Source of the DNA: a virus
Lineage: Duplodnaviria > Heunggongvirae > Uroviricota > Caudoviricetes
IMG/VR virus record: IMGVR_UViG_2651869691_000007
Span: 1 to 12,183 of that record
DNA: 12,183 bases
Direction: 5' to 3' (one strand)
In this document: positions 1-12,183 of the stretch, piece after piece
Numbering within the stretch: the stretch's first letter is position 1
Layout of the letters: the number at the start of each line of letters is the position of its first letter
Position numbers and translations under genes: made by a program
The notes under the pieces: model-generated
What the model was told of the DNA's origin: nothing
Seen by the model: only the letters and a program-made list of their open reading frames with translations
Databases searched by the model: none

Positions 1-261
1 CTTTCTTTTTTCTCCTTTTATTTCAGAGTGATAGGTGGTGAATAATGGGTGAAGGGTGAACATTCGATTCTTCACCTACGGCATTCTGCCGGTGTGACTT
101 GTACAGGGGATTAATCCTCCGCACTGAAATCACACAGGGCGAAAAAAGTTTTTTTTGATTTGATTGTTCACACTGTTCACCTTTCGTTTTTCTCTTTTAA
201 TTTCAGTGTGATAACGGGTGAATACACGGTGAAGGATGAACAGTGGATTGTTCACCTGCGG
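1..261. repeat. crr: crr-like cis replication region: two ~81-bp imperfect direct repeats (1-81 and 181-261) each carrying type-I iteron variants
   Basis: Seen directly: repeat A (1-81) and repeat B (181-261) align at ~85% identity; both contain GGTGAATA, GGTGAAGG, G(G/A)TGAACA and an inverted TGTTCACC; two more inverted iterons at 165-181. P4 crr is described as two direct repeats with TGTTCACC iterons bound by alpha. Repeat A may start before the window. Confidence 0.6.
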
Positions 262-274
262 GGAATTCAGGGAT

Positions 275-300
275 AAAAAAAAGACCGGCAGATGCCGGTC
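275..300 (-). terminator. Rho-independent terminator downstream of alpha
   Basis: On the minus strand: GACCGGC-AUCU-GCCGGUC hairpin (283-300) followed immediately by U8 (275-282); lies 17 nt past the alpha stop codon (317-319). Confidence 0.65.
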
Positions 301-316
301 AGATGAGTCATGATGG

Positions 317-2650
317 TCAGGTTGTCGCAGGGTCGTCACATTTTGGCAGCCAGTCGCCGTAGCTTTCCTCTTTCAGTGTCAGGTTGGTCTGTATCCCCTG
401 TTTGGTATGGCGCTTCTCGTAATTCAGTCCGTATTCCTTCAGCATCACCGGTAGCCCCAGCCCGAACATTTTCAGACTGAGTACATTCCGGTAGCCGTTT
501 GCCTCCATGTAGGCCAGACAGGCGTGATAGAGGTATTTACGGTAATTACGCGGGATGATACTGGCGTTCCCCATATACATGCCGCTGGTCTGCGGCAGGG
601 TTTCCAGATAGCCGATAAAATCAAACGTCGGGTCGGCATCCCGTTTGATGTTCAGCGCCTCGTCTGAGTTCTGCTGGGACTGAAGCAGTGACCGGGCGAG
701 CATCGGGTCGCTGAACTTCTGCATCAGGTGACGCACGATGACCGCCAGCTCGCGGGTGATTTTGTCCTTAAGCTGCGGGTCGCGCTCCTGCGGGGCTATC
801 TGTTCCGGGAAGTGAATAATCACCCGCCGGCGTGACACGCCGCCGCTGCGGTCGGTGAAGCGCATCGGGTTATTGTTCACGGCCAGAATCACCGCCGGGA
901 TATGCGTGGAGTACGCATCCCGGTATTTCGGGTCAACGGACACCGCATCGCCGCCGGTGATGGCCTTGAGTCCGGCACCGTCGCCGCTCCATTTTTCCTG
1001 GTCCGGCAGGCGTATCAGTGAGAAGCCAGTTAACGCGGCACGTTCACGCGGGGATTCCAGCGTCTCAATGGTGGCCGACGTGGCGTTATCCTCCCCGGCC
1101 AGCAGGGTGGCGATTTCGGCCATGATACTTTTGCCGCTGCCGCCGGGACCGGTCACCTCCAGAAAGAGCTGCCAGTCGTAGCGGTTTGCCAGCACCATAA
1201 ACAGTGCGGCCAGAATCACGTCGCGTTTTTCCGCACGGCCACCGGCGGCACGGTCAAGCCAGCGCCAGAACGCGGGGGCGTGGGTCTCCAGCGTTTCACC
1301 GTCCACCGGCGGGGTGAAATCCACATCGCACAGGGTGCGCATCCAGTGTGACGGACTGTGCGGGTGGAACGTGCCGTTCTGCGTGTCGAGCACGCCGTTA
1401 CGAAAGCCAATCAGGCGGCGGGAGGGGGCTTCCTGCTGCGGAATAATCAGCTTCAGGGTGTCCACCACGGAGGCCACCTTCCCGGAGGAGAACGGCGCGC
1501 GCAGACGCTGAAACAGCCCGGCCACATCCCGGGCAAAGTCCTGTGGCGGCAGCACCTTCCAGACACCATTTTCATAGCGGGACAGAAGCTGGCCGTTGGC
1601 ATCGACCGCGAGCGCCTCGCCGTAATGCTCATAGATACGCATGGCCTTTTCGCTGGTACTCATGGCGGAAAACTCCGCTTCGCTCATGGTGTCGAACGGG
1701 CTTTCAGCCGGTGGCCGGATGGCATCATAAATGGCCTTACGGGTGGCCTCCCCGCCGTACTGCGTGAAGGCATCATTCCAGTCACCGAAGACCGGCGGCA
1801 GGGCAACAACACCCTCACACGCATCTGCGGCTGCGGCGGCTTTTGTCTGGCCGTCACCGCTGAGGTCACGGTCTGCGGCAAGGACAATCTGACAGGCCGG
1901 ATACTTCTGCCGGGCAAGGCTGGCCAGAGAAAGGAGGTTCACGGAAGAAAGCGCCACCATCACCGTTTCACCGGTCAGGTGATGCACGGTAAGTGCGGTC
2001 GCGTATCCCTCCGCTATCCACAGACGTTTTCCGGCCTGATTCTGTCCTTCAAAGATGTGACAGGTGCCCCTGACCTGCCCGCCTTTCAGAGTGCGCTTAC
2101 GGCCGTCAGCACTGATTAACTGAAGGTTAACCAGTTCGCCACTGTCGTCATACAGTGGCACCACAAGGTCACCGGCGCGCCAGCTCACGCCACCGGCTCT
2201 GTGTGTGCCGGTCAGCATCCGGCATTCCCGGTCGGGAAAGCCCTTGCGGGTCAGGTAGGCGTTACCGGTTCCGGGACGGGTTTTTGCCATCAGGGTTTGT
2301 GCCAGTGCGGCGGCGTTCTTCCGGGCAGCGTCTGTTTCAGCGCCGGCGGCGGCCGTCACTGCCGGGTCAGCCGGGGGCAGGCTGCCGGTCACGGCAGCCA
2401 CCTTTGCGGCCGCGTCGGACGGGGAGACACCAAACACCTTTTCAACCAGTTTCAGGCCGTCACCGGCACCACACTGATTGCAGTACCAGGTGCCGCGCCC
2501 CTCCCTGTCATCAAAACGGAAGCGGTCACTCCCGCCACAGACCGGACAGGGCTGATGACGGTTTTTCAGCACCTGAATCCCCAGCGCCGGGAGAATACGC
2601 GGCCAGTGGCCGAGCGCATGGCTGACGGTGGCGGTTACGTTCATTTTCAT
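317..2650 (-). CDS. alpha: P4 alpha-type DNA primase-helicase (777 aa)
   Basis: 777-aa ORF; N-terminal Cys4 zinc ribbon (CPVCGG...YCNQCG), TOPRIM-like segment (WIAEGYATAL...LAADRDLSGDG), Walker A GPGGSGKS. Length and N-terminus match recalled P4 alpha. The C-terminal domain would bind the TGTTCACC iterons seen at ori and crr. Confidence 0.9.
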   Translation of the reverse strand: MKMNVTATVSHALGHWPRILPALGIQVLKNRHQPCPVCGGSDRFRFDDREGRGTWYCNQCGAGDGLKLVEKVFGVSPSDAAAKVAAVTGSLPPADPAVTAAAGAETDAARKNAAALAQTLMAKTRPGTGNAYLTRKGFPDRECRMLTGTHRAGGVSWRAGDLVVPLYDDSGELVNLQLISADGRKRTLKGGQVRGTCHIFEGQNQAGKRLWIAEGYATALTVHHLTGETVMVALSSVNLLSLASLARQKYPACQIVLAADRDLSGDGQTKAAAAADACEGVVALPPVFGDWNDAFTQYGGEATRKAIYDAIRPPAESPFDTMSEAEFSAMSTSEKAMRIYEHYGEALAVDANGQLLSRYENGVWKVLPPQDFARDVAGLFQRLRAPFSSGKVASVVDTLKLIIPQQEAPSRRLIGFRNGVLDTQNGTFHPHSPSHWMRTLCDVDFTPPVDGETLETHAPAFWRWLDRAAGGRAEKRDVILAALFMVLANRYDWQLFLEVTGPGGSGKSIMAEIATLLAGEDNATSATIETLESPRERAALTGFSLIRLPDQEKWSGDGAGLKAITGGDAVSVDPKYRDAYSTHIPAVILAVNNNPMRFTDRSGGVSRRRVIIHFPEQIAPQERDPQLKDKITRELAVIVRHLMQKFSDPMLARSLLQSQQNSDEALNIKRDADPTFDFIGYLETLPQTSGMYMGNASIIPRNYRKYLYHACLAYMEANGYRNVLSLKMFGLGLPVMLKEYGLNYEKRHTKQGIQTNLTLKEESYGDWLPKCDDPATT

Positions 2651-2664
2651 GGTGTTGTTCTCCT

Positions 2665-2985
2665 TCAGTGCAGTACCGGCGCTTTTATGTGACGGGCACA
2701 GAGTTCATCCATCACAACCAGCCCGAGAAAGGACAGCGACGGCGCGGCCTTCAGGGGGCCGGATTCCATTAAATCTTCCAGCAGGGCACAGGCTATCTGA
2801 CGCCCTTTTTCCTCACCGTGCTGGCGCAGATAAAAGCCTTCCAGCTCAGCGGCGATGGCCGCCTCCAGTGACTCAAGGGTGAGATGCGGGTAGCGGTGCT
2901 GACGTTCGCACACGGTCAGCCAGGCACAGGCGACAGCGCGACGGTAAAGGGCAGCGCGTAAGACGGGCGGTAAGGGTGTTTTCAT
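2665..2985 (-). CDS. P4 orf106-like protein (106 aa), function unknown
   Basis: 106-aa ORF immediately upstream of alpha in the same operon; AGGGAG Shine-Dalgarno upstream of the ATG; position and length match P4 orf106. Confidence 0.7.
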
Positions 2986-3047
2986 TTGCTTTTCTCCCTG
3001 TGACAGATGACTGCATTCCGTGCCGGTTGCATTAACTGATAAGGCAT
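2982..3047 (-). CDS. Candidate 21-codon leader ORF ([21 protein letters not shown]) translationally coupled to orf106
   Basis: ATG at 3047 preceded by AGGAG (3056-3060) with 8-nt spacing; stop TGA overlaps the orf106 ATG as ATGA (2982-2985). Below the ORF-track length cutoff; no homology evidence. Confidence 0.25.
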
Positions 3048-3120
3048 ATCTGCGTCTCCTGAAGACGTGCGTATCCCTGCGCGAATACGCACATTTAATT
3101 TTTCGGGGGTCGTTTTTTAA

Positions 3121-3576
3121 TTACAGATAATTGCGGTAACTGTTATCCGGGGTGGTTTCCGGGTCAGGCTCCGTGCGGGGAATTTCCCGCCATTCCCGCG
3201 CCACCGGTGCCGCCCGGCTGACCGGAACAGGGGCCTGCGGGTAAATATCCAGATATTTCTCCCGCCATTTCTGTAATTCCGGGTCTCCGGCCATTTCTTT
3301 CAGTACCGCATGCCTGTTTACGGGGCTGCGTTTAAACAGGTCAGGACGGTCACAGGTAAATTCCCGCAGAAAACGCCCCAGCGGGATGTCTGTGGTGCGC
3401 CCGTCAGCGAGGATACGCACAAGGATACTGAATTTACGGCGGTACGGGTTCCAGACAATGTCCGGGCAGCGGTACGGCATTTCCCACGGAATACCGTCTT
3501 CCAGAATGCCGACCACGGCCACATCGGGAAAACCGGCAGAACGGTAAATCTCACCGGGCTGGGGAAAATCAAACAT
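3121..3576 (-). CDS. P4 orf151-like protein (151 aa), function unknown
   Basis: 151-aa ORF between epsilon and orf106; size and position match P4 orf151. Confidence 0.7.
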   Translation of the reverse strand: MFDFPQPGEIYRSAGFPDVAVVGILEDGIPWEMPYRCPDIVWNPYRRKFSILVRILADGRTTDIPLGRFLREFTCDRPDLFKRSPVNRHAVLKEMAGDPELQKWREKYLDIYPQAPVPVSRAAPVAREWREIPRTEPDPETTPDNSYRNYL

Positions 3577-3856
3577 GCGTCCTGTCTCCCCGGTCTTTCT
3601 GCTGGGCGAGAAAATCGCGGCACAGGCCTTTGGCTTTCAGCTCATTCAGCACAAAATCAATATCTTCATTCAGGTAGCTGAAAATATGCGGAATGTAGAG
3701 CTGATGCAGGCCGGAGAGTTCACGGTGAATCAAATCACCCCCAACAAACCGGGATACGGCGCTGGCGCGGTTGAGCTTATGGTAAGCCTCAATGCTGAGG
3801 TGTTCACGGGCGTCATGACGCGCTGAGACGGTCTGAGGGGCTTTTTTATTACGCAC
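3569..3856 (-). CDS. epsilon: P4 epsilon-like protein (95 aa; derepressor of helper prophage in P4)
   Basis: Tail of the 177-aa track ORF. Proposed start is GTG at 3856 with GGAGG 6 nt upstream, giving 95 aa ([15 protein letters not shown]...). The GTG overlaps the last codons of kil; the stop overlaps the orf151 start by 8 nt. Confidence 0.65.
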
Positions 3857-4046
3857 GGGACACCTCCACCACCGGCAGACGGGCAGCAAGGGAGAGCACA
3901 TAGTCACGGACAAGGGAACGGCGGGCGCTGCGTTCATCACCGGCGACGGTGCGAAGCATACAGATACGGGGATGACGGTCTGCGCGACGGACAGCCGCAA
4001 ACACAAAGACAAATTCAGGGTGTGAGGGGGTAAGGGTTGTAGCCAT
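3849..4046 (-). CDS. kil: kil-like 65-codon ORF, first translated gene after PLE
   Basis: ATG at 4046 preceded by strong SD AAGGAGG (4055-4060); 65 aa ([12 protein letters not shown]...VVEVSRA); forms the in-frame C-terminal part of the longer eta ORF, as described for P4 kil/eta. Confidence 0.6.
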
Positions 4047-4448
4047 GATGGCAGCCTCCTTGAAGTAACAGTTACAGCTACCACTAGAGTTCCTACGCTC
4101 ATGGGTGGTAGCCCGGACGGGGGTAGGAATACCGGCCTTCAAGGAAACCGGCCAGCCCGAAGGCTGCCCCGCCCGGACCACCATTATCTGACAGAGGCTA
4201 CGGTTTAAAAACCACAGCCAGAAAAACAGGTGTGCCGAAGCAACGACGTAAAAAAAGACGCATGGCGCGTCATATGTCGCCTTGAAGTAACTCGGGTTCC
4301 TACGCCCGGCTGCCGATTTTGCGGCAGCGGAAAAACTATATCCGCAAATGCCGGAAAAAGGCAAGCCAGAAAAAGGGAGTTTTTGCAGAGCGGGCATCAT
4401 CATGCGTCGTACCCCCGTTTGCGTCCGGCAATGCGTCCGGCCATCCAT
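3849..4448 (-). CDS. eta: eta-like long ORF (199 aa) starting upstream of PLE and containing kil in frame
   Basis: 199-aa ORF whose ATG (4448) lies upstream of the predicted PLE (4335-4364) and which spans the cI region. Matches the nested eta/kil arrangement reported for P4; translation is expected only from PLL transcripts. Confidence 0.4.
4104..4172 (-). ncRNA. cI: cI immunity RNA region (contains seqB)
   Basis: Minus-strand transcript 4172->4104 (69 nt) is closed by GGUGGU/ACCACC, has an internal CAGCC-UUCG-GGCUG tetraloop hairpin, and carries seqB (4123-4144) complementary to seqA (4280-4305) and seqC (4058-4098). Processed ends cannot be set from sequence. Confidence 0.45.
4250..4271 (-). 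terminator. Hairpin plus U7 in the PLE leader (candidate attenuator/terminator between seqA and cI)
   Basis: Minus-strand RNA: GACGC-GCCAU-GCGUC (4257-4271) followed by U7 (4250-4256). The stem is short (5 bp), so efficiency is uncertain. Confidence 0.35.
4335..4364 (-). promoter_or_regulatory. Candidate sigma70 promoter PLE (-35 TTGCCT, 18-bp spacer, -10 TATAGT)
   Basis: On the minus strand: TTGCCT (4359-4364), 18-bp spacer, TATAGT (4335-4340); sits inside eta, just downstream of the vis stop and upstream of seqA, as expected for P4 PLE. Confidence 0.4.
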
Positions 4449-4666
4449 GCGGTGACTTCAGAGTGCAGCCAGGCCACATTTTTACCGCCAAGACTCACCT
4501 GCGGCGGAAATTCCCCCTTACGGATGAGTTCGTAGATGGTCGAGCGTGACAGGCCGCACAGGTGCATCACTTCCGGAAGACGTAAAAAACGCTCCTGTGT
4601 GATGTCCGGCAGCGGCATCAGTGGCGTCACAGGGGCGGGAGAAGGGGAAGAAAAAACAGCTTGCAT
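4400..4666 (-). CDS. vis: Vis/AlpA-family small DNA-binding regulator (88 aa)
   Basis: 88-aa ORF with AlpA-type HTH ([46 protein letters not shown]); GAGG SD 7 nt upstream; first gene downstream of the PLL dyad; matches P4 vis (orf88) in size and position. Confidence 0.75.
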
Positions 4667-4768
4667 CGGGCTACCTCGTTAATGTCCATACAGCACCGGA
4701 TAAGTCCGTCCGGCTTCGGGTAGCGCTTTATTTTGTGAATATTTTCAGCAGACGCAACAGGGGGGATT

Positions 4769-4786
4769 TGTTCCGGCAGCCTTACA
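4769..4786 (-). promoter_or_regulatory. TGT-N12-ACA dyad: candidate Delta/Ogr activator site of late promoter PLL
   Basis: Exact TGT(4769-4771)-N12-ACA(4784-4786); sits roughly 100 bp upstream of the vis ATG (4666), consistent with a -55-centred activator site for a minus-strand promoter. The -10 element is weak, as is typical for activator-dependent P2/P4 late promoters. Confidence 0.45.
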
Positions 4787-4811
4787 ATGCTTGTGTATTT
4801 TTTGTTCATCT

Positions 4812-4841
4812 CCACTTAAAGTCATTTAAAGCCACTTAAAG
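4812..4841. repeat. Three tandem 10-bp repeats (CCACTTAAAG / TCATTTAAAG / CCACTTAAAG)
   Basis: Seen directly; the 10-bp period puts the sites on one helix face; located between the PLL dyad and the ori iterons. Confidence 0.5.
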
Positions 4842-4945
4842 CAATTCGTAATTTTTATAGTGAAATACAAATCGTTTTTTCTTATTCATTCCCGGCGAAT
4901 TAATAAAAACAAACAGTAATAAACAGCACAAAAAGCCCATCAACG

Positions 4946-5050
4946 GGTGAACAGTGGTGAACAGACGGTGAACAGCCATTACTGCAATTGTTCACCCTTT
5001 AACTTACTGTATTACCTATCTTTTTTCTTATGGTGAACAGAGGTGAACAG
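4946..5050. repeat. ori: ori-like iteron cluster: six type-I iterons (five direct GGTGAACAG, one inverted TGTTCACC)
   Basis: GGTGAACAG at 4946-4954, 4956-4964, 4967-4975, 5032-5040, 5042-5050; inverted TGTTCACC at 4989-4996. Flanked by AT-rich DNA and a 15-bp direct repeat AAAAACAAACAGTAA (4905-4919 and 5061-5075). P4 ori is reported to hold six type-I iterons. Confidence 0.6.
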
Positions 5051-5128
5051 TAAAATATAAAAAAACAAACAGTAAGCCGGTTTTTCCTGCGACCTTTTCC
5101 TGGCTTGCCGGTCTGAGGATGAGTCTCC

Positions 5129-5146
5129 TGTGTCAGGGCTGGCACA
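5129..5146 (+). promoter_or_regulatory. TGT-N12-ACA dyad: candidate Delta/Ogr activator site of late promoter Psid
   Basis: Exact TGT(5129-5131)-N12-ACA(5144-5146), centred ~82 bp upstream of the sid ATG (5219), consistent with a -55-centred site and a short leader. Confidence 0.5.
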
Positions 5147-5218
5147 TCTGCAATGCGTCGTGTTGTTGTCCGGTGTACGTCACAATTTTCTCAACCTGAA
5201 GTGACGAGGAGCCGGAAA

Positions 5219-5928
5219 ATGTCTGACAACACCATCCCTGAATATCTGCAACCCGCACTGGCACAACTGGAAAAGGCCAGAGCCGCCCACCTTGAGAACG
5301 CCCGCCTGATGGATGAGACCGTCACGGCCATTGAACGGGCAGAGCAGGAAAAAAATGCGCTGACGACTGGCGCACGGCCTTTCGTGCAGCCAGTGGTGTC
5401 CTGAGCGACGAGCTGAAACAGCGCCACATTGAGCGCGTGGCACGCCGGGAGCTGGTACAGGAATATGACAATCTGGCCGTGGTGCTGAATTTTGAACGCG
5501 AACGCCTGAAAGGGGCGTGTGACAGCACGGCCACCGCCTACCGGAAGGCACATCATCACCTTCTGAGTCTGTATGCAGAGCATGAGCTGGAACACGCCCT
5601 GAATGAAACCTGTGAGGCGCTTGTCCGGGCAATGCATCTGAGCATTCTGGTACAGAAAAATCCGCTCGCCAACACCACCGGGCATCAGGGCTACGTCGCA
5701 CCCGATAAAGTTGTCATGCAGCAGGTGAAATCATCACTGGAACAGAAAATAAAACAGATGCAAATCAGCCTCACCGGCGAGCCGGTTCTCCGGCTGACCG
5801 GACTGTCAGCGGCAACGCTCCCGCACATGGATTATGAGGTGGCAGGCACACCGGCACAGCGCAAGGTGTGGCAGGACAAAATAGACCAGCAGGGAGCAGA
5901 GCTTAAGGCCAGAGGACTGCTGTCATGA
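5219..5928 (+). pseudogene. sid: sid (external capsid size-determination scaffold) interrupted by a frameshift
   Basis: ATG at 5219 (GAGGAG upstream; MSDNTIPEYLQPALAQ...) runs in frame 2 to TGA at 5402-5404. The continuation (…AFRAASGVLSDELKQRHIERVARRELVQEY… to 5928) is open in frame 1 from 5335. The two frames overlap only in 5335-5401, which contains an A7 run (5349-5355). A sequencing error is possible. Confidence 0.6.
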
Positions 5929-6425
5929 TTTACTGCCCGTCGTGTGGACATGTTGCTCACACCCGTCGCGCACATTTCATGGACGATGGCACCAAGATAA
6001 TGATTGCACAGTGCCGGAATATTTATTGCTCTGCGACATTTGAAGCGAGTGAAAGCTTTTTCTCTGACTGTAAAGATTCAGGAATGGAATACATTTCAGG
6101 CAAACAGAGATACCGCGATTCACTGACTTCTGCCTCCGGCAGTATGAAACGCCCGAAAAGAATGCTTGTTACCGGATATTGTTGTCGGAGATGTAAAGGC
6201 CTTGCACTGTCAAGAACATCGCGGCGTCTGTCTCAGGAAGTCACTGAACGTTTTTATGTGTGCACGGATCCGGGCTGTGGTCTGGTGTTTAAAACGCTTC
6301 AGACCATCAACCGCTTCATTGTCCGCCCGGTCACGCCGGACGAACTGGCAGAAAGCCTGCATGAAAAACAGGAACTGCCGCCAGTACGGTTAAAAACACA
6401 ATCATATTCGCTGCGTCTGGAATGA
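5925..6425 (+). CDS. delta: Delta late-gene transcriptional activator (duplicated Ogr-type zinc finger, 166 aa)
   Basis: 166 aa with two Ogr-like Cys4 modules (MIYCPSCGHVAHTRRAHFMDDGTK...CRNIYCSATF and CCRRCKGLALSRTSRR...CTDPGCGLVF); ATGA overlap with the sid stop. Confidence 0.85.
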   Translation: MIYCPSCGHVAHTRRAHFMDDGTKIMIAQCRNIYCSATFEASESFFSDCKDSGMEYISGKQRYRDSLTSASGSMKRPKRMLVTGYCCRRCKGLALSRTSRRLSQEVTERFYVCTDPGCGLVFKTLQTINRFIVRPVTPDELAESLHEKQELPPVRLKTQSYSLRLE

Positions 6426-6498
6426 GGGCTGCCGGTTAACCCCGGCCGTCGCCGCACACCGTATTTTTATTCTTCAGCATGATGAGAAAGAGATAACG

Positions 6499-7071
6499 AT
6501 GGAAAGCACAGCCTTACAGCAGGCCTTTGACACGTGTCAGAATAACAAAGCAGCATGGCTGCAACGCAAAAATGAGCTGGCTGCGGCCGAACAGGAATAT
6601 CTGCGGCTTCTGTCAGGAGAAGGCAGAAACGTCAGTCGCCTTGACGAATTACGCAATATTATCGAAGTCAGAAAATGGCAGGTGAATCAGGCCGCCGGTC
6701 GTTATATTCGTTCGCATGAAGCCGTTCAGCACATCAGCATCCGCGACCGGCTGAATGATTTTATGCAGCAGCACGGCACAGCACTGGCGGCGGCACTGGC
6801 ACCGGAGCTGATGGGCTACAGTGAGCTGACGGCCATTGCCCGAAACTGTGCCATACAGCGTGCCACAGATGCCCTGCGTGAAGCCCTCCTGTCCTGGCTT
6901 GCGAAGGGTGAAAAAATTAATTATTCCGCACAGGATAGCGACATTTTAACGACCATCGGATTCAGGCCTGACGCGGCTTCGGTGGATGACAGCCGTGAAA
7001 AATTCACCCCTGCGCAGAACATGATTTTTTCGCGTAAAAGTGCGCAACTGGCATCACGTCAGTCTGTGTAA
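6499..7071 (+). CDS. psu: Psu polarity-suppression / capsid decoration protein (190 aa)
   Basis: 190-aa ORF following delta; N-terminus MESTALQQAFDTCQNNKAAW and length match recalled P4 Psu. Confidence 0.85.
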   Translation: MESTALQQAFDTCQNNKAAWLQRKNELAAAEQEYLRLLSGEGRNVSRLDELRNIIEVRKWQVNQAAGRYIRSHEAVQHISIRDRLNDFMQQHGTALAAALAPELMGYSELTAIARNCAIQRATDALREALLSWLAKGEKINYSAQDSDILTTIGFRPDAASVDDSREKFTPAQNMIFSRKSAQLASRQSV

Positions 7072-7235
7072 AATTCCCCGAAAATCCGCCTGTTTTTACT
7101 GAAAAAAGCCATGTATCGATAAGGTGCATGGCTTTGCATGCGTTTCCCTGCCTCATTTTCTGCAGACCGCGCCATTCCCGGCGCGGTCTGAGCGTGTCAG
7201 TGCAACTGCATTAAAACCGCCCCGCAAAGCGGGCG

Positions 7236-7254
7236 GGCGAGGCGGGGAGAGCAT
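7236..7254. other. cos: cos-like site (GGCGAGGCGGGGAGAGCAT)
   Basis: Differs at 2 of 19 positions from the P2/P4 19-nt cohesive end as recalled (GGCGAGGCGGGGAAAGCAC); preceded by GC-rich hairpin CCGCCCCGC-AAA-GCGGGCGG (7217-7236); lies right after psu, where P4 cos is expected. Confidence 0.55.
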
Positions 7255-7272: not shown

Positions 7273-7962
7273 TCATTTATTTTGTAATGCCGCATCAAAT
7301 CTGGTCTTGAGATCTTGGAATGGGATAACGAGTTTATCGATATAATCTTTATTATTATTTTGTAGAATTGCTTCAACAAAATCATTTAGAGGTGCATAGT
7401 TTTCTAATACTTTAGAATCGATAAAATCTTTATAGGACATACATTCAGCACCAATGCTAAGGCTTTCACCTATATACTTTTGTTCAAGAGATCTAATACA
7501 AGGAAAACCAATATCGTTCTCTCGTAGGGCTATAGAAATATTTTTGATTAATTCAGTTATTAACATTTCATCATTAGTTGGTGAAAATACAGATGAATCT
7601 CTATTTTTCCTGAATTGATGTACCCAGCAAAAATATTGGCATAGATAGAATCTTGTACTATCAATATAATATTGATCCGACGATAGGTCATTGTGATCTT
7701 TAATATAACATAGCCTTCCTAAAAAACCATTTGCAGCACTAAGTAATGTTAACCCCCAACGTCCGATTTCAAGATCTCTTGCTTTTTTAAAATTATAAGC
7801 ACGTTCATCCTCTTTAATTCTCTGTTCACTTTCATATTTCAACTTATTTTTAAATGATTCTAACTCTCTTTTATCAATATGTTGTAAAAAAGCCTTACAA
7901 ACAAATCCAATAATTGCAAATGAAATGCTTGATGACAAAATACCTTCCCAAAAGCTACTCAT
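7273..7962 (-). CDS. Small membrane-anchored partner protein (229 aa) of the RT-nitrilase gene
   Basis: N-terminal hydrophobic helix (ILSSSISFAIIGFVCKAFL); ATG overlaps the upstream gene stop as ATGA (7959-7962) with GAGG SD; ~30% GC; no motif I can recognise in the soluble part. Confidence 0.75.
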   Translation of the reverse strand: MSSFWEGILSSSISFAIIGFVCKAFLQHIDKRELESFKNKLKYESEQRIKEDERAYNFKKARDLEIGRWGLTLLSAANGFLGRLCYIKDHNDLSSDQYYIDSTRFYLCQYFCWVHQFRKNRDSSVFSPTNDEMLITELIKNISIALRENDIGFPCIRSLEQKYIGESLSIGAECMSYKDFIDSKVLENYAPLNDFVEAILQNNNKDYIDKLVIPFQDLKTRFDAALQNK

Positions 7963-10835
7963 TTCTCACCTCGCTCTAATAGAGCATTATAGTCAAACCC
8001 TGGAGGATTGTGTTTAATAGTATCGGAGTTAATTCTGAATGAACGATATTGAGCCTCTCTCAATGCATATATATTTAAAGTAGTAGTTAGGATGCAATGG
8101 TTTTCCCCACCTTTTACATATATCTTATTTGAAATAGTGCTACTGGTCGGTTGTAGAACACAAGAACCGCCATAATGCGAAGTATTTGATTGAGCCACAT
8201 AACAATGTAAATCCCGTGTCGCTGACTCAGTGATATGTTGATAATAATTTATATCTTGATTCCATACGCAAGCAAATAAAATATCCAACTGCGAACGAAA
8301 TAATGCTCTATGCTCGATATTAGCCAGTTCAAAACAGTTGTATGTAGAAAATGATACGTTTTTCCACTTAATCAAATGATACCGTTGTTTACTAGGTTTA
8401 GGAGAGGATATTTTTAACCTTAAAGAATTCAGCATCGTAATCTCACTAGGTGCGTAATGATTTTTCACTCGAAAAACTAACATACTGGATTTGTGTTTAA
8501 AGTTTGAAGTATAAGGCAGCATTTCAACCAAAATATTATATGCGCGTTCGTTAATAACCCAATGCTCTAATCCGAAAATCAAAGATATTTGTTTTCTCCT
8601 TGAATGTGCTGCCATAAAAGGTAACCACGACACAGGAATTGATAACTCAGGGAGTAGTAATATCTGCACATTTTCTTCAGTTGCCGAGTTGAGAATACGA
8701 TAAAGGTTTCTTTGTCGTTCATAACTTAAATTTGGAGACTGATCTTTTCTGCAAGCACTTTCAATATTACGACGTTCAACTCTCATATTTGCCAACGCAA
8801 CTTTTATTGTGTCATTACCACTTCTATCATCAATTCCTACCTTTATTTCAAGAGCTTTATTATCTTTTATCTTAGTAACAGAGCAATTTTTTAAGTGATG
8901 CTTATTTTCATGCGTAAACTTATGTAGTTTTCTTGTATGAAGAGCATCAATCAAATCGAAAAGCTGCTTTTCATCAGCATGAATATATCTAGGGGTTTTA
9001 TTTAATTTATCATTATCAAGTGGAATACCATGCATCTTACTGTATAAATTCTCCTCAGTAAGATCTCCTTTATATTTAGTATAGTTAGCTAAAGGCCAAG
9101 ACACTAGATTATGACGAATCAAATTACTGCTTCTAAATCTTTCAATTAGAACAGACATTCCATCGGACTGTTTAATTAAAGATTTCAAACCTTCCAAAGC
9201 TCTATTTTGTGGCTCTTTATCACCTAAAATGACATTTAAATCTAACAAAGCCAAATTCAAACAAAGAGAAATATCAATGTATTTCTGCATTCCATTTTTA
9301 AGTTTTGGAGATATAACACTATCACCTTCCTTCCACTTCATTTTATTAATTGATTCTTTAATTTGTTTGTAAAAGGCGATTGAAAATCCATATTTTCTTG
9401 TAATTAATGTATACGATAGAACTTTCTCCCATAACCGACTGAACCTTAGAGAATTTTCACCTTTAAAAAACAGCGTTATTTGCTTTAAGGTATTCTCATT
9501 CGATGGAAGATTGCAAAGCCTATGAGCTAAGATATGTGATGATATATATTTTGATAATTCAGTTTCATTCTCTGCCAAACCTACAATACTTCTAAATTTA
9601 TTTGCCGAACCATCAAGTAATATATCATAAGCAAATTTATCGAGATCGCTAGATATATGTTCTTCCGGTAAAAAACGAAATGCACTGCTTCTGTTCTCAA
9701 TTTCTTGTTTGAAGACTTGTAAACCAGCCAAACTATGATCTTTATTGAAATAATGAAAAATCAATTTATCCTTTTGAATTGGTAATTCATGATAACTCTC
9801 GGTCAACGTAAAGCCTTTCTCATCATTCGCTGCCTGTTTGATGAATCCATTAAGGGTTCGCTCTATGAATTTTATTACTTCTTCACCTTTATCTTCTTTT
9901 TTAATGTCCGGAGATGAAAAAACTAAAAGAATATCATCCACATAGCGACCGTAGTACGATGGATTAATTTTTGATTTAATATCTTTATCAAAACCCATTA
10001 AATACCAATTAGATAATATGGCAGAAGAAGTAAATCCAATTGGAATGCCTTTTGATGAAGGAGTTGAATGTGTCACACCAATATATGGAGATATTTTCTC
10101 TCTGTATTTTTGATGCATCAACCTCAATTTACTATTCAACAACATAGAAAGAGCTTTAATTTCTTCTAATTGTTCTTCGTCAATAATTCTATCAATGGCA
10201 TCAAAATCTATATCTATATTATAATAAAAACCCTTAAGATCCAGAGAAAGAATTGCAACATCATTTCGCTCTTTTTCTATAACTTCTATCGCTTTATCGA
10301 TACCACCATCTCGCCATTTATTATAATTATCAATGTATCTTTCAAAGATATTTTTTGAGGAGTTTTTTGGCGCATCGAAACTATTCTTAGAATATTTTTT
10401 TATTACTTTTGATATTCTATTTCCATAAACCGAATCAGAAAACTTGTCATCTAGCATTGAACCAACAAAGATAGACCAGAGTGTTTCTATTAAATATATT
10501 TCAATAGGAGCAACGATCAAATAATTTACAGCACCTACTTTGTATTCATCTGATGTCTTATTATTACTTAAAAAAAGAGCTCCGCTCGTTTGCTCAATAT
10601 CCAAATGGCTATCAATTTTTTTTGGTAATAATTCAACATCAATTTTATTTAGCCACTCATTAAAGTTAATGTCATTATTATTTTCAAAAAAATCAACCAC
10701 TTTTTCTATTTTTTCGTCATAGAGAGAATCTTCAAATTGAGCGATTTCTTCCTTTAGGAAAAAATTTAAGTTTTCGTAGTAAGCATATGACTTAAGACAA
10801 TTATATGCACTAACAACTATATCTTTTGTAATCAT
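7959..10835 (-). CDS. Reverse transcriptase fused to C-terminal nitrilase (carbon-nitrogen hydrolase) domain, 958 aa; candidate defence-associated RT
   Basis: RT motifs: LSLDLKGFYYNIDIDF (aa 196-211), PIGFTSSAILSNWYL (aa 265-279), YGRYVDDILLVF with YVDD encoded at 9933-9944. CN-hydrolase signature: IKVALANMRV, LLLPE (Glu730, 8646-8648), FRVKNHY (Lys), YNCFE (Cys834 at 8334-8336, Glu836). N-terminal ~185 aa and the aa 310-670 region are unassigned. Confidence 0.85.
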   Translation of the reverse strand: MITKDIVVSAYNCLKSYAYYENLNFFLKEEIAQFEDSLYDEKIEKVVDFFENNNDINFNEWLNKIDVELLPKKIDSHLDIEQTSGALFLSNNKTSDEYKVGAVNYLIVAPIEIYLIETLWSIFVGSMLDDKFSDSVYGNRISKVIKKYSKNSFDAPKNSSKNIFERYIDNYNKWRDGGIDKAIEVIEKERNDVAILSLDLKGFYYNIDIDFDAIDRIIDEEQLEEIKALSMLLNSKLRLMHQKYREKISPYIGVTHSTPSSKGIPIGFTSSAILSNWYLMGFDKDIKSKINPSYYGRYVDDILLVFSSPDIKKEDKGEEVIKFIERTLNGFIKQAANDEKGFTLTESYHELPIQKDKLIFHYFNKDHSLAGLQVFKQEIENRSSAFRFLPEEHISSDLDKFAYDILLDGSANKFRSIVGLAENETELSKYISSHILAHRLCNLPSNENTLKQITLFFKGENSLRFSRLWEKVLSYTLITRKYGFSIAFYKQIKESINKMKWKEGDSVISPKLKNGMQKYIDISLCLNLALLDLNVILGDKEPQNRALEGLKSLIKQSDGMSVLIERFRSSNLIRHNLVSWPLANYTKYKGDLTEENLYSKMHGIPLDNDKLNKTPRYIHADEKQLFDLIDALHTRKLHKFTHENKHHLKNCSVTKIKDNKALEIKVGIDDRSGNDTIKVALANMRVERRNIESACRKDQSPNLSYERQRNLYRILNSATEENVQILLLPELSIPVSWLPFMAAHSRRKQISLIFGLEHWVINERAYNILVEMLPYTSNFKHKSSMLVFRVKNHYAPSEITMLNSLRLKISSPKPSKQRYHLIKWKNVSFSTYNCFELANIEHRALFRSQLDILFACVWNQDINYYQHITESATRDLHCYVAQSNTSHYGGSCVLQPTSSTISNKIYVKGGENHCILTTTLNIYALREAQYRSFRINSDTIKHNPPGFDYNALLERGEK

Positions 10836-10926: not shown

Positions 10927-12183
10927 TTAATATTTTTTTGCAAAATCAAATGGTGTTACGAAAGTCTCACGATTTGCTGATAGGAAATCCGCCCACCATT
11001 GCATCATCAATCGACGTTCGTCCAAATGCTCTGAAGTATGGATATAAGCTGCACGAACATTATTGCGCTCCGAGTGGCTTAACTGACGTTCTATCGCATC
11101 ATCACTCCAAAGCCCCGACTCCCCCAAAGCACCACGCGCCATTGTTCTAAAACCATGCCCACATACTTCCGTTTGTGTGTCGTAGCCCATAGTCCTGAGC
11201 GCATTATTAACTGTGTTTTCGCTCATAACTTTATTGGGATCATGATCACCGGGAAACAGTCTAGGATTATCTCCACTAAGCTTCTTCAACTCATCCAGCA
11301 AAGCTAGAGCCTGAGTGCTCAATGGAACAATATGTTCCTCTTTCATCTTCATCCCACGATAGGAGTAACGCACACCTTCGATTTCTTCACGCCGCGCCGG
11401 TATCCGCCAGCAGGCGTTATCAAAATCAAACTCATCCCATCGGGCAAATCGCATCTCACTAGAGCGAACGAAGGTAAGTAGAGATAACTCGACTGCAATA
11501 CGCGTCATTTTGCGGCCACGATATGCCGCAAGGCGTGCCAGAAACTCAGGGAAACGGCTGGAAGGTAGAGCTGGATAGTGTCGTGCTTTAGTTGTCGATA
11601 ACGCACCAGCCATATCGCTAGCCGGGTTCGAGTCGATATAATCGTTCTGTACGGCATACCGCATAATGGCCGTGACGCGCTGTTGCAGGCGCTGAGCGAC
11701 GTCGTGTTTACCACTGACATCAACTTTTTTAATCGGGGCTAATAGGTGGCTAGTTTTGAGCTGGCGAATGTCGGACGAACCGATATGAGGGAAGATATAA
11801 AGCTCAAGATAGCGAAGAACACGCGATCGATGGTCTTCACTCCAGCGCTTGTTACTGGCATGCCATTCGCGAGCAATGGTTTCGAAGGTATATGCCCCCG
11901 AATTCTCGGCCTGAGCTTCTTTCTGTTCGGCTTTTGGGTCAATGCCCTGCACTAACAGCTTTTTAGCTTCGTCGCGCTTTGCTCTTGCCTGAGCAAGCGT
12001 CACTGTAGGCCAAACACCAAAAGCGAGGCGATCCTCTTTTTTGTCAGAGGGGCGTCGGTATTTCATGCGCCAGTATTTAGAACCCTTGGCCGAAACCTCG
12101 AGATACAAACCGCCGCCATCGGCCATTTTGTATGTTTTGTCTTTTGGCTTTGCGGTCTCGACCTGTCTGGCGTTGAGCTTCAT
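10927..12183 (-). CDS. int: P4-family tyrosine integrase (418 aa), start codon at window edge
   Basis: N-terminus MKLNARQVETAKPKDKTYKMADGGGLYLEVSAKGSKYWRMKYR typical of P4/CP4-57-type integrases; catalytic-domain boxes TFVRSSEMR, HGFRTMARG, VRAAYIHTSE. ATG occupies 12181-12183, so upstream extension cannot be excluded. Confidence 0.9.
   Translation of the reverse strand: MKLNARQVETAKPKDKTYKMADGGGLYLEVSAKGSKYWRMKYRRPSDKKEDRLAFGVWPTVTLAQARAKRDEAKKLLVQGIDPKAEQKEAQAENSGAYTFETIAREWHASNKRWSEDHRSRVLRYLELYIFPHIGSSDIRQLKTSHLLAPIKKVDVSGKHDVAQRLQQRVTAIMRYAVQNDYIDSNPASDMAGALSTTKARHYPALPSSRFPEFLARLAAYRGRKMTRIAVELSLLTFVRSSEMRFARWDEFDFDNACWRIPARREEIEGVRYSYRGMKMKEEHIVPLSTQALALLDELKKLSGDNPRLFPGDHDPNKVMSENTVNNALRTMGYDTQTEVCGHGFRTMARGALGESGLWSDDAIERQLSHSERNNVRAAYIHTSEHLDERRLMMQWWADFLSANRETFVTPFDFAKKY

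What the first reader, a model, noticed from the sequence alone, without database searches (positions are those of the whole stretch)
4905..5075. Origin architecture: six iterons bracketed by a 15-bp direct repeat and an AT-rich tract
Five direct GGTGAACAG copies and one inverted TGTTCACC lie between two exact copies of AAAAACAAACAGTAA (4905-4919 and 5061-5075), with a strongly AT-rich tract at 4843-4940. This looks like an iteron array with an adjacent DNA-unwinding element, placed between the divergent late promoters. The same iteron family recurs in the crr repeats ~4.8 kb away, at the far side of alpha.
Basis: partly seen in the sequence, partly recalled or inferred. Interest (0 to 1): 0.45.

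Follow-up and report, generated by a model that had tools for sequence, protein, structure and literature searches.

The report
Satellite phage P4 replication origin

Summary
Five direct GGTGAACAG copies, one inverted TGTTCACC and two exact copies of AAAAACAAACAGTAA lie at the stated coordinates, far beyond chance. The window is a P4-like prophage. Region 4780-5230 is 98% identical to phage P4, whose GenBank records annotate these same six octamers as "ori type 1 repeats" inside "origin of DNA replication". All six iterons are unchanged. The initiator alpha (317-2650, minus strand) is 99% identical to P4 alpha, and its C-terminal origin-binding domain matches PDB 1KA8 at 99 of 100 residues. 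Cnr is 100% identical. The second cis site, crr (1-271), carries the same octamers.

A comparison of 26 P4-like origins from 11 genera shows that the iteron layout is strongly conserved. So is an exactly 35-bp AT-rich spacer between the inverted iteron and the last pair. The 15-bp "bracket" is a close repeat only in P4's nearest relatives. The same TGTTCACC-N35-GGTGAAYA module also occurs in each crr unit. Which AT-rich segment melts remains unmapped.

Verdict: already known, low interest.

The parts
1..271 (+). crr, the second cis-acting replication site. Unit 1 is cut about 40 bp in by the window edge; unit 2 is complete. It carries type 1 octamers at 55, 174 and 249 (exact) and at 37, 69, 165, 217 and 235 (1 mismatch).
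   Evidence: Alignment to P4 4291-4590 ('crr', two 120-bp direct repeats) and to E. coli M19; octamer list.
317..2650 (-). alpha, the initiator: zinc ribbon, Toprim primase, D5_N/SF3 helicase and a C-terminal winged-helix origin-binding domain (residues 671-770).
   Evidence: 765 of 776 residues identical to P4 alpha. Pfam domains. Residues 671-770 match PDB 1KA8 at 99 of 100, E = 1e-62.
2665..2985 (-). cnr (ORF106), the copy-number regulator that acts through alpha.
   Evidence: 106 of 106 residues identical to P4 ORF106. Its role is stated in PMC8628076.
4769..4786 (.). TGT-N12-ACA dyad, the presumed Delta/Ogr site of the leftward late promoter PLL.
   Evidence: The promoter assignment rests on my own knowledge; the inferred start near 4722 corresponds to P4 9086.
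4790..4940 (.). AT-rich tract (29% G+C), candidate unwinding region A. Its sequence is not conserved among P4-like elements, but its AT-richness is.
   Evidence: The least stable 30-mers of the backbone include 4849-4879 and 4896-4926.
4812..4841 (+).
   Evidence: P4 annotation 9176-9205; identical in the window. The block varies between lineages.
4905..4919 (+). Left copy of the 15-mer AAAAACAAACAGTAA.
   Evidence: In P4 itself the last base is G, so the exact repeat there is 14 bp. Conservation to the window is 62%.
4946..4975 (+). Type 1 iterons 1-3 (GGTGAACAG at 4946, 4956 and 4967; spacing 10 and 11 bp).
   Evidence: They are 92-98% conserved over 26 origins.
4989..4996 (-). Type 1 iteron 4, inverted (TGTTCACC on the + strand).
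   Evidence: 88% conserved.
4997..5031 (.). 35-bp AT-rich spacer (23% G+C) between oppositely oriented iterons 4 and 5, candidate unwinding region B.
   Evidence: It is exactly 35 bp in 24 of 26 origins, 83% identical and 11-29% G+C. The 30-mer 5000-5030 is among the least stable of the backbone. The same N35 geometry occurs in crr.
5032..5050 (+). Type 1 iterons 5 and 6 (GGTGAACAG at 5032 and 5042).
   Evidence: 93% and 85% conserved.
5061..5075 (+). Right copy of the 15-mer, inside an A-tract (5051-5075, 12% G+C).
   Evidence: It is 82% conserved across genera, as AAAAA(C/T)AAAC(A/G)G.
5076..5113 (+). Conserved G+C-rich block (GTTTTCCTG.GACCTTT..CTGGC..GCCGG) between the origin and the Psid dyad; function not established.
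   Evidence: 75% conserved over 26 origins. Positions 5093-5109 form a 94% complementary inverted repeat with 4360-4376 (I23).
5129..5146 (.). TGT-N12-ACA dyad, the presumed Delta/Ogr site of the rightward late promoter Psid, upstream of sid (ATG at 5219).
   Evidence: Conserved in all aligned relatives except the three Serratia sequences. The promoter assignment rests on my own knowledge.

Best explanation
Region 4790-5075 is the primary origin (ori, also called ori1) of a P4-type satellite phage, carried here in a prophage.

The proposed mechanism has four steps:
- The element's own alpha protein is a single polypeptide with primase, SF3 helicase and a C-terminal winged-helix DNA-binding domain. 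It recognises the octamer TGTTCACC/GGTGAACA at the six origin iterons and at the related octamers in crr, about 4.8 kb away beyond its own gene.
- The 10-11-bp phasing puts neighbouring iterons on one face of the helix.
- Bound alpha assembles over an adjacent AT-rich segment, opens it, primes and unwinds, giving bidirectional theta replication without the host initiator or helicase loader.
- Cnr restrains this in the plasmid state by acting on alpha.

Shown here: sequence identity of every cis and trans component with P4, and strong cross-genus conservation of the iteron geometry. Taken from the P4 literature and database annotation: alpha binding and the requirement for ori plus crr in cis. 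Inferred: where melting occurs, and that this particular prophage copy still fires.
For: The region is 97-98% identical to P4, with the rep_origin feature, six 'ori type 1 repeats' and three 'ori type 2 repeats' annotated at the homologous positions. No substitution falls in any repeat.

Alpha is 99% identical to P4 alpha, and its residues 671-770 match the solved P4 origin-binding domain 1KA8 at 99 of 100. Cnr is 100% identical. crr is aligned to the annotated P4 crr.

All 9 exact octamers of the window are confined to ori and crr.

The 3 + 1 inverted + 2 layout at offsets 0, 10, 21, 43, 86 and 96 is kept in 26 origins from Escherichia, Enterobacter, Serratia, Phytobacter, Kosakonia, Kluyvera, Edwardsiella, Raoultella, Tatumella, Buttiauxella and Klebsiella, while the flanks diverge.

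ori and crr are the least stable duplex segments of the backbone.

PMC4234260 and PMC2777425 state that P4 alpha binds the origin repeats through a winged-helix domain and then unwinds and primes.
Against: Nothing in the sequence argues against this reading. The limits are these:
- No experiment exists on this copy.
- The primary P4 papers could not be read here, so alpha footprinting, ori-crr looping and DnaA/DnaB independence are cited from memory or second-hand.
- The cross-genus set was ascertained by requiring two adjacent iterons, so only the other four iterons, the spacings and the spacer are independent evidence.
- The element has a frameshifted sid, so it may be decaying, although replication genes and sites are intact.
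Confidence: 0.95

Rival explanations
1. This is the same origin, but the unwinding and helicase-loading site is the 35-bp spacer 4997-5031 between the oppositely oriented iterons 4 and 5, not the reader's tract 4843-4940. Two alpha assemblies would be nucleated on inverted sites about four helical turns apart and would melt the DNA between them, as SF3 helicases of papilloma- and polyomaviruses do at their origins.
For: The spacer is exactly 35 bp in 24 of 26 origins, 83% identical and 11-29% G+C. The left tract, by contrast, is only 38-62% identical in sequence. The 30-mer 5000-5030 ties with 4849-4879 as the least stable of the backbone. The same TGTTCACC-N35-GGTGAAYA module is present in both crr units of P4, in the window's crr, and at about -4.1 kb in 5 other genera (Raoultella, Kluyvera, Tatumella, Enterobacter, Phytobacter). 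It occurs nowhere else in those loci.
Against: AT-richness of the left tract is also conserved (23-43% G+C) even though its sequence is not, and that is how unwinding elements usually behave. High sequence conservation of the spacer could instead reflect a bound protein or a priming site. crr carries the same module yet is not reported to be an initiation site (own knowledge).
Confidence: 0.35
2. The repeats serve mainly as operators for the divergent late promoters, not for replication. Alpha, Vis or Delta would bind them to set PLL and Psid expression.
For: The array lies between two TGT-N12-ACA dyads. No sigma-70-type promoter is predicted in 4600-5300, which fits activator-dependent promoters. 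The conserved block 5076-5113 next to the Psid dyad has no replication role assigned.
Against: The same octamers occur in crr, downstream of alpha's terminator, where there is no promoter. The P4 records annotate the region as the origin. The protein domain solved as the 'origin-binding domain' is encoded here. A regulatory side-effect of alpha binding is not excluded, but it would be in addition to origin function.
Confidence: 0.03
3. The origin is intact in sequence but is a silent relic. The prophage is decaying and this origin is no longer used.
For: sid carries a 25-bp deletion that truncates it after 61 codons. The 12 closest complete E. coli genomes are 25 bp longer over the whole window, and alignment to M19 places the gap in sid.
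Against: alpha, cnr, vis, delta, psu, int, crr, cos and every origin repeat are intact. Loss of sid affects capsid size, not replication (own knowledge). The deletion appears recent, because all close relatives lack it.
Confidence: 0.1
4. The repeats are chance or low-complexity repeats in AT-rich intergenic DNA.
For: The 15-mer is A-rich and lies in an AT-rich region.
Against: 0 of 200 and 0 of 2000 shuffles reach the observed values. The iterons are conserved across 11 genera.
Confidence: 0.01

Closest known systems
Bacteriophage P4 ori (ori1) with crr and the alpha protein (GenBank X51522 / NC_001609 / X05623 / X02534; alpha origin-binding domain PDB 1KA8)
   Same: The six type 1 iterons, the three type 2 decamers, the spacings and the flanking genes (vis/ORF88 on the left, sid on the right) are all the same. 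So are crr beyond alpha, alpha (99%) and Cnr (100%). The DNA is 97-98% identical across the origin.
   Different: There are 13 substitutions in the 451 aligned bp, none in a repeat. One of them makes the left 15-mer an exact copy, whereas P4 has G at its last base. The element is integrated, has a different cargo (a DRT reverse-transcriptase system instead of gop/beta/cII), a more divergent integrase (84.5% DNA identity) and a frameshifted sid.
Iteron-type plasmid origins (pSC101, R6K gamma, F, P1, RK2)
   Same: They share clustered, helically phased direct repeats bound by the replicon's own winged-helix initiator next to AT-rich DNA. They also have a second iteron cluster elsewhere on the replicon that takes part in control.
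   Different: The initiator here is itself the primase and helicase. No DnaA box (up to 1 mismatch) and no IHF consensus occur inside 4790-5080. The iterons are 8-9 bp rather than 17-22 bp. From my own knowledge, the remote cluster (crr) is required for replication rather than only inhibitory.
Origins of SF3-helicase viruses (SV40 large T antigen, papillomavirus E1) and poxvirus D5 / pRN1 ORF904 primase-helicases
   Same: They have one polypeptide with an origin-binding domain plus an SF3 helicase, and oppositely oriented binding sites flanking AT-rich DNA. Alpha matches the Pfam families D5_N and Pox_D5. PMC2777425 and PMC4234260 draw the same parallel.
   Different: Alpha carries a bacterial Toprim primase and a C-terminal rather than N-terminal DNA-binding domain. 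Double-hexamer assembly at the P4 origin has not been shown.
Replication modules of other phage satellites (SaPI/PICI Pri-Rep with iteron origins, PLE RepA)
   Same: A satellite encodes its own initiator and an iteron origin, so it replicates independently of the helper phage.
   Different: The proteins and repeats are unrelated, and a remote crr-like second site is not a feature of those systems (own knowledge).

Membership tests
P4-type origin (ori1) | Six type 1 octamers TGTTCACC arranged as three direct, one inverted and two direct within about 105 bp | tested here: met
   Exact octamers at 4946, 4956, 4967, 4989 (inverted), 5032 and 5042. These are homologous to P4 9310-9413, annotated 'ori type 1 repeat'.
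P4-type origin (ori1) | Three tandem type 2 decamers in the AT-rich DNA to the left of the iterons | tested here: met
   4812-4841 is identical to P4 9176-9205.
P4-type origin (ori1) | Cognate initiator alpha with a C-terminal winged-helix origin-binding domain, encoded on the same element | tested here: met
   ORF 317-2650 (minus strand) has 765 of 776 residues identical to P4 alpha. Residues 671-770 match PDB 1KA8 at 99 of 100.
P4-type origin (ori1) | A second cis site, crr, with the same octamers, located beyond the 3' end of alpha | tested here: met
   Window 1-271 aligns to P4 crr. The first 40 bp of unit 1 lie outside the window but are present in E. coli M19.
P4-type origin (ori1) | Position between vis/ORF88 (PLL) and sid (Psid) | tested here: met
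   The AlpA-family ORF lies at 4400-4666 (minus strand) and the sid start at 5219. TGT-N12-ACA dyads lie at 4769 and 5129.
P4-type origin (ori1) | Alpha binds the iterons, and ori plus crr are required in cis for replication | not testable with these tools
   This is known for P4 only from the literature (summaries in PMC4234260 and PMC2777425). The primary papers were not held.
Classical iteron plasmid origin (DnaA-dependent) | DnaA box(es) within the origin | tested here: not met
   No TTATNCACA match with up to 1 mismatch occurs in 4743-7064.
Classical iteron plasmid origin (DnaA-dependent) | IHF site within the origin | tested here: not met
   The only WATCAANNNNTTR match in the window is at 7872.
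Classical iteron plasmid origin (DnaA-dependent) | Phased direct repeats next to an AT-rich region | tested here: met

The most novel reading that the evidence does not exclude
The functional unit of P4-type replication may not be 'six iterons plus a flanking AT tract'. It may instead be a conserved module, TGTTCACC-N35(AT-rich)-GGTGAAYA, present once in ori and once in each crr unit. Two alpha assemblies on inverted sites exactly 35 bp apart would melt the DNA between them. On this reading crr would be a pair of origin-like loading modules, and the flanking 15-mer duplication and type 2 repeats would be lineage-specific accessories. I cannot tell from the papers available here whether this shared N35 geometry has been pointed out before.
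Probability: 0.3. Interest if true: 0.35.

Novelty: already known. Interest (0 to 1): 0.08.

Why it matters
The result confirms that the first-stage reader can recognise an origin from raw sequence.

The modest added value is comparative. The iteron geometry and the exact 35-bp AT-rich spacer are conserved across 11 enterobacterial genera and are shared with crr. The 15-bp bracket and the type 2 repeats are not conserved. This narrows where to look for the still unmapped melting site of this primase-helicase initiator.

Tried and rejected
- Primary P4 papers. Ziegelin 1993 (PMC413647) and Lindqvist 1993 (PMC372931) are not held. Full-text searches for crr/iteron/Psid/PLL found only secondary mentions.
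- Genome-wide pattern scan. I kept only 18 Enterobacterales loci with at least 4 iteron-like sites in 140 bp.
- Host-factor sites. There is no DnaA box or IHF consensus in the origin.
- Sigma-70 promoter and terminator scan of 4600-5300 found nothing, as expected for activator-dependent late promoters.
- The idea that the type 2 repeats are specificity sites for the adjacent Vis/AlpA protein is weakened. E. coli Z563 and M19 encode the same Vis protein (WP_001149160.1), yet Z563 has a different type 2 block from the window, which is identical to M19 there.
- The idea that the two 15-mers are a conserved pair of binding sites is rejected as a general feature. Left and right copies diverge independently outside the P4-proper clade.
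- The 62-aa ORF at 4627-4815 (minus strand), which overlaps the PLL region, was treated as spurious. It starts upstream of the inferred PLL start and is not annotated in P4 or M19.

Full report
**Observation**

The sequence at 4905-5075 is as described. GGTGAACAG is exact at 4946, 4956, 4967, 5032 and 5042. TGTTCACC, the inverted octamer, is at 4989-4996. AAAAACAAACAGTAA is exact at 4905 and 5061.

These repeats are not chance.
- The 9-mer with up to 1 mismatch occurs 11 times against 1.98 expected, and 0 of 200 shuffles reach 11.
- All nine exact octamers of the 12.2-kb window fall in two clusters, six here and three at 55-256.
- No dinucleotide-preserving shuffle of 4790-5080 gives an exact repeat of 15 bp (0 of 2000).

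The AT-rich tract is real. Region 4843-4940 is 27.6% G+C against 55.4% for the backbone. The tract actually runs from about 4790.

**Identity of the element**

The window is a P4-like satellite prophage. Its order is:
- crr (1-271)
- alpha (317-2650, minus strand)
- cnr (2665-2985, minus strand)
- ORF151
- epsilon
- vis/ORF88 (4400-4666, minus strand)
- ori
- sid (from 5219)
- delta (5925-6425)
- psu (6499-7071)
- cos (7236-7254)
- a cargo hotspot (7273-10835)
- int (10927-12183, minus strand)

This order follows.

Region 4700-5300 is 97.0% identical to P4 9064-9664, and 4780-5230 is 98% identical with no gaps. In GenBank X51522 and NC_001609 this stretch carries the feature 'origin of DNA replication'. 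It also carries six 'ori type 1 repeats' at 9310-9413, which correspond to window 4946-5049. Three 'ori type 2 repeats' at 9176-9205 correspond to window 4812-4841. None of the 13 substitutions touches a repeat.

The region is 100% identical in E. coli M19. It occurs in 1072 of 5426 complete E. coli genomes, always on chromosomes.

**The trans-acting partner and the second site**

Alpha has 765 of 776 residues identical to P4 alpha. Its Pfam domains are zinc ribbon, Toprim, D5_N, DUF5906 and Pox_D5. Residues 671-770 match the solved P4 origin-binding winged-helix domain 1KA8 at 99 of 100 positions. Cnr is 106 of 106 identical.

Window 1-271 aligns to the annotated crr of P4, which consists of two 120-bp direct repeats. 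The window edge removes the first 40 bp of unit 1, including two octamers that are present in M19.

PMC4234260 and PMC2777425 summarise the published mechanism: alpha binds the origin repeats through its winged-helix domain, then unwinds and primes.

The following points I cite from memory only, because the primary papers were not available:
- footprinting of type 1 iterons and ori-crr looping (Ziegelin et al. 1993);
- the cis requirement for crr (Flensburg & Calendar 1987);
- independence from DnaA, DnaB, DnaC and DnaG;
- a back-up ori2 within alpha (Tocchetti et al. 1998).

**Position relative to the promoters**

TGT-N12-ACA dyads lie at 4769-4786 and 5129-5146. From my own knowledge, this dyad centred near -55 is the Ogr/Delta site of P2/P4 late promoters. 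No sigma-70-type promoter is predicted, which fits activator-dependent promoters.

**Comparative anatomy**

I aligned 26 P4-like origins. They comprise the window, P4, six diverged E. coli copies and 18 loci from Enterobacter, Serratia, Phytobacter, Kosakonia, Kluyvera, Edwardsiella, Raoultella, Tatumella, Buttiauxella and Klebsiella.

One caveat applies. The non-E. coli set was ascertained by requiring two adjacent iterons, so only the other features are independent evidence.

Mean identity to the window by segment:

| Segment | Identity to window |
|---|---|
| Iterons 1-6 | 0.98, 0.94, 0.92, 0.88, 0.93, 0.85 |
| Spacer 4997-5031 | 0.83 |
| Right 15-mer | 0.82 |
| Block 5076-5113 | 0.75 |
| Left 15-mer | 0.62 |
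| AT tract 4843-4904 | 0.51 |
| Type 2 repeats | 0.39 |

The spacer between iterons 4 and 5 is exactly 35 bp in 24 of 26 origins and 11-29% G+C. The left tract keeps its AT-richness (23-43% G+C) but not its sequence.

The two 15-mers agree at 13-15 of 15 positions only in the P4-proper clade and at 5-10 of 15 elsewhere. The 'bracket' is therefore a lineage-specific duplication, not a general design feature.

**A shared module in ori and crr**

Both crr units contain TGTTCACC, a 35-bp T-rich spacer, then GGTGAATA. This is the same geometry as iteron 4, the spacer and iteron 5 in ori.

A pattern scan finds this module only at ori and at the crr position. It lies about -4.8 to -5.0 kb from ori in P4 and about -4.1 kb in Raoultella, Kluyvera, Tatumella, Enterobacter and Phytobacter loci.

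**Duplex stability**

With nearest-neighbour energies, the least stable 30-mers of the backbone (1-7100) are 4849-4879, 5000-5030, 5046-5076 and 4896-4926. Two crr segments follow.

**Mechanism and rivals**

The best explanation, at 0.95 confidence, is the alpha-dependent origin of a P4-type replicon. Where the DNA opens is not settled. I put about 0.35 on the internal 35-bp spacer, by analogy with SF3-helicase origins that have inverted sites flanking AT-rich DNA.

A purely transcriptional role is unlikely, because the same octamers occur in promoter-less crr.

A 'silent relic' reading has limited support from a 25-bp deletion in sid. All replication parts are nevertheless intact.

**Relation to known systems**

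This is a member of the P4 ori family on every sequence-level criterion I could test.

It works like iteron plasmid origins in three ways: phased repeats, a winged-helix initiator and AT-rich DNA. It lacks DnaA and IHF sites, and its initiator is itself the primase-helicase.

**Verdict**

The finding is correct and already known. Interest is low.

Noticed in passing
window 5357/5358 (sid, 5219-5928): Relative to E. coli M19 the window lacks 25 bp (CGCTGACGCAGGCCGACGGAAACGA) inside sid. The frameshift stops the protein after 61 codons, whereas P4 Sid has 244 residues. All 12 near-identical copies in complete E. coli genomes are about 25 bp longer over the window. This copy probably cannot direct small-capsid assembly.
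   Followed up: partly
window 7273-10835 (minus strand): The psu-int hotspot carries a defence reverse-transcriptase system. It comprises a 958-aa RT_UG5-nitrilase (PADLOC full-length match, 2254 bits) and a 229-aa RT-associated membrane protein (RTasTM). The RT is annotated as a pseudogene with an internal stop in strain M19 but is an intact ORF here; the two differ at 9912 and 10315.
   Followed up: partly
window 5093-5109 and 4360-4376: The 17-mer CCTTTTCCTGGCTTGCC, just upstream of the Psid dyad, has a 94% complementary inverted copy 716 bp to the left, downstream of vis near the expected early promoter. The right copy sits in a block (5076-5113) that is 75% conserved across 11 genera. Its function is unknown to me.
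   Followed up: no
window 4806-4850 versus L006-L008: The type 2 repeat block is a sharply bounded variable cassette. E. coli cq9, Z563 and A25 have GGACTGGAAG GGTCTCAAAG GGTTCTGAAG-type decamers in otherwise near-identical flanks. More distant relatives have TGGCAAAC-type decamers at the same place. Z563 and M19 encode the same Vis protein (WP_001149160.1), yet Z563's block differs from the one shared by M19 and the window.
   Followed up: partly
L063, L082, L090, L104, L125 (about 4.1 kb left of their ori): In five non-E. coli P4-like elements with enough flank, only one crr-type module (TGTTCAC-N35-GGTGAATA) was found, against two 120-bp units in P4. The crr duplication may be specific to the P4 lineage.
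   Followed up: no
L005 about 3172-3181 and P4 4281-4290 (just outside the window's left end): A perfect DnaA-box sequence (TTATCCACA) lies immediately upstream of crr unit 1 in both P4 and M19. The type 1 iteron itself (TTGTTCACA) is one mismatch from the DnaA-box consensus TTATNCACA.
   Followed up: no
window 7236-7254: The cos cohesive-end sequence is GGCGAGGCGGGGAGAGCAT, two mismatches from the P4 end GGCGAGGCGGGGAAAGCAC.
   Followed up: partly
window 10927-12183 and L005 1507-3212: The integrase is only 84.5% identical to P4 int at the DNA level. In M19 the element sits next to a tRNA-Leu gene. At its crr end lies a second integrase gene plus an integrase fragment, which suggests tandem islands at this site.
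   Followed up: no
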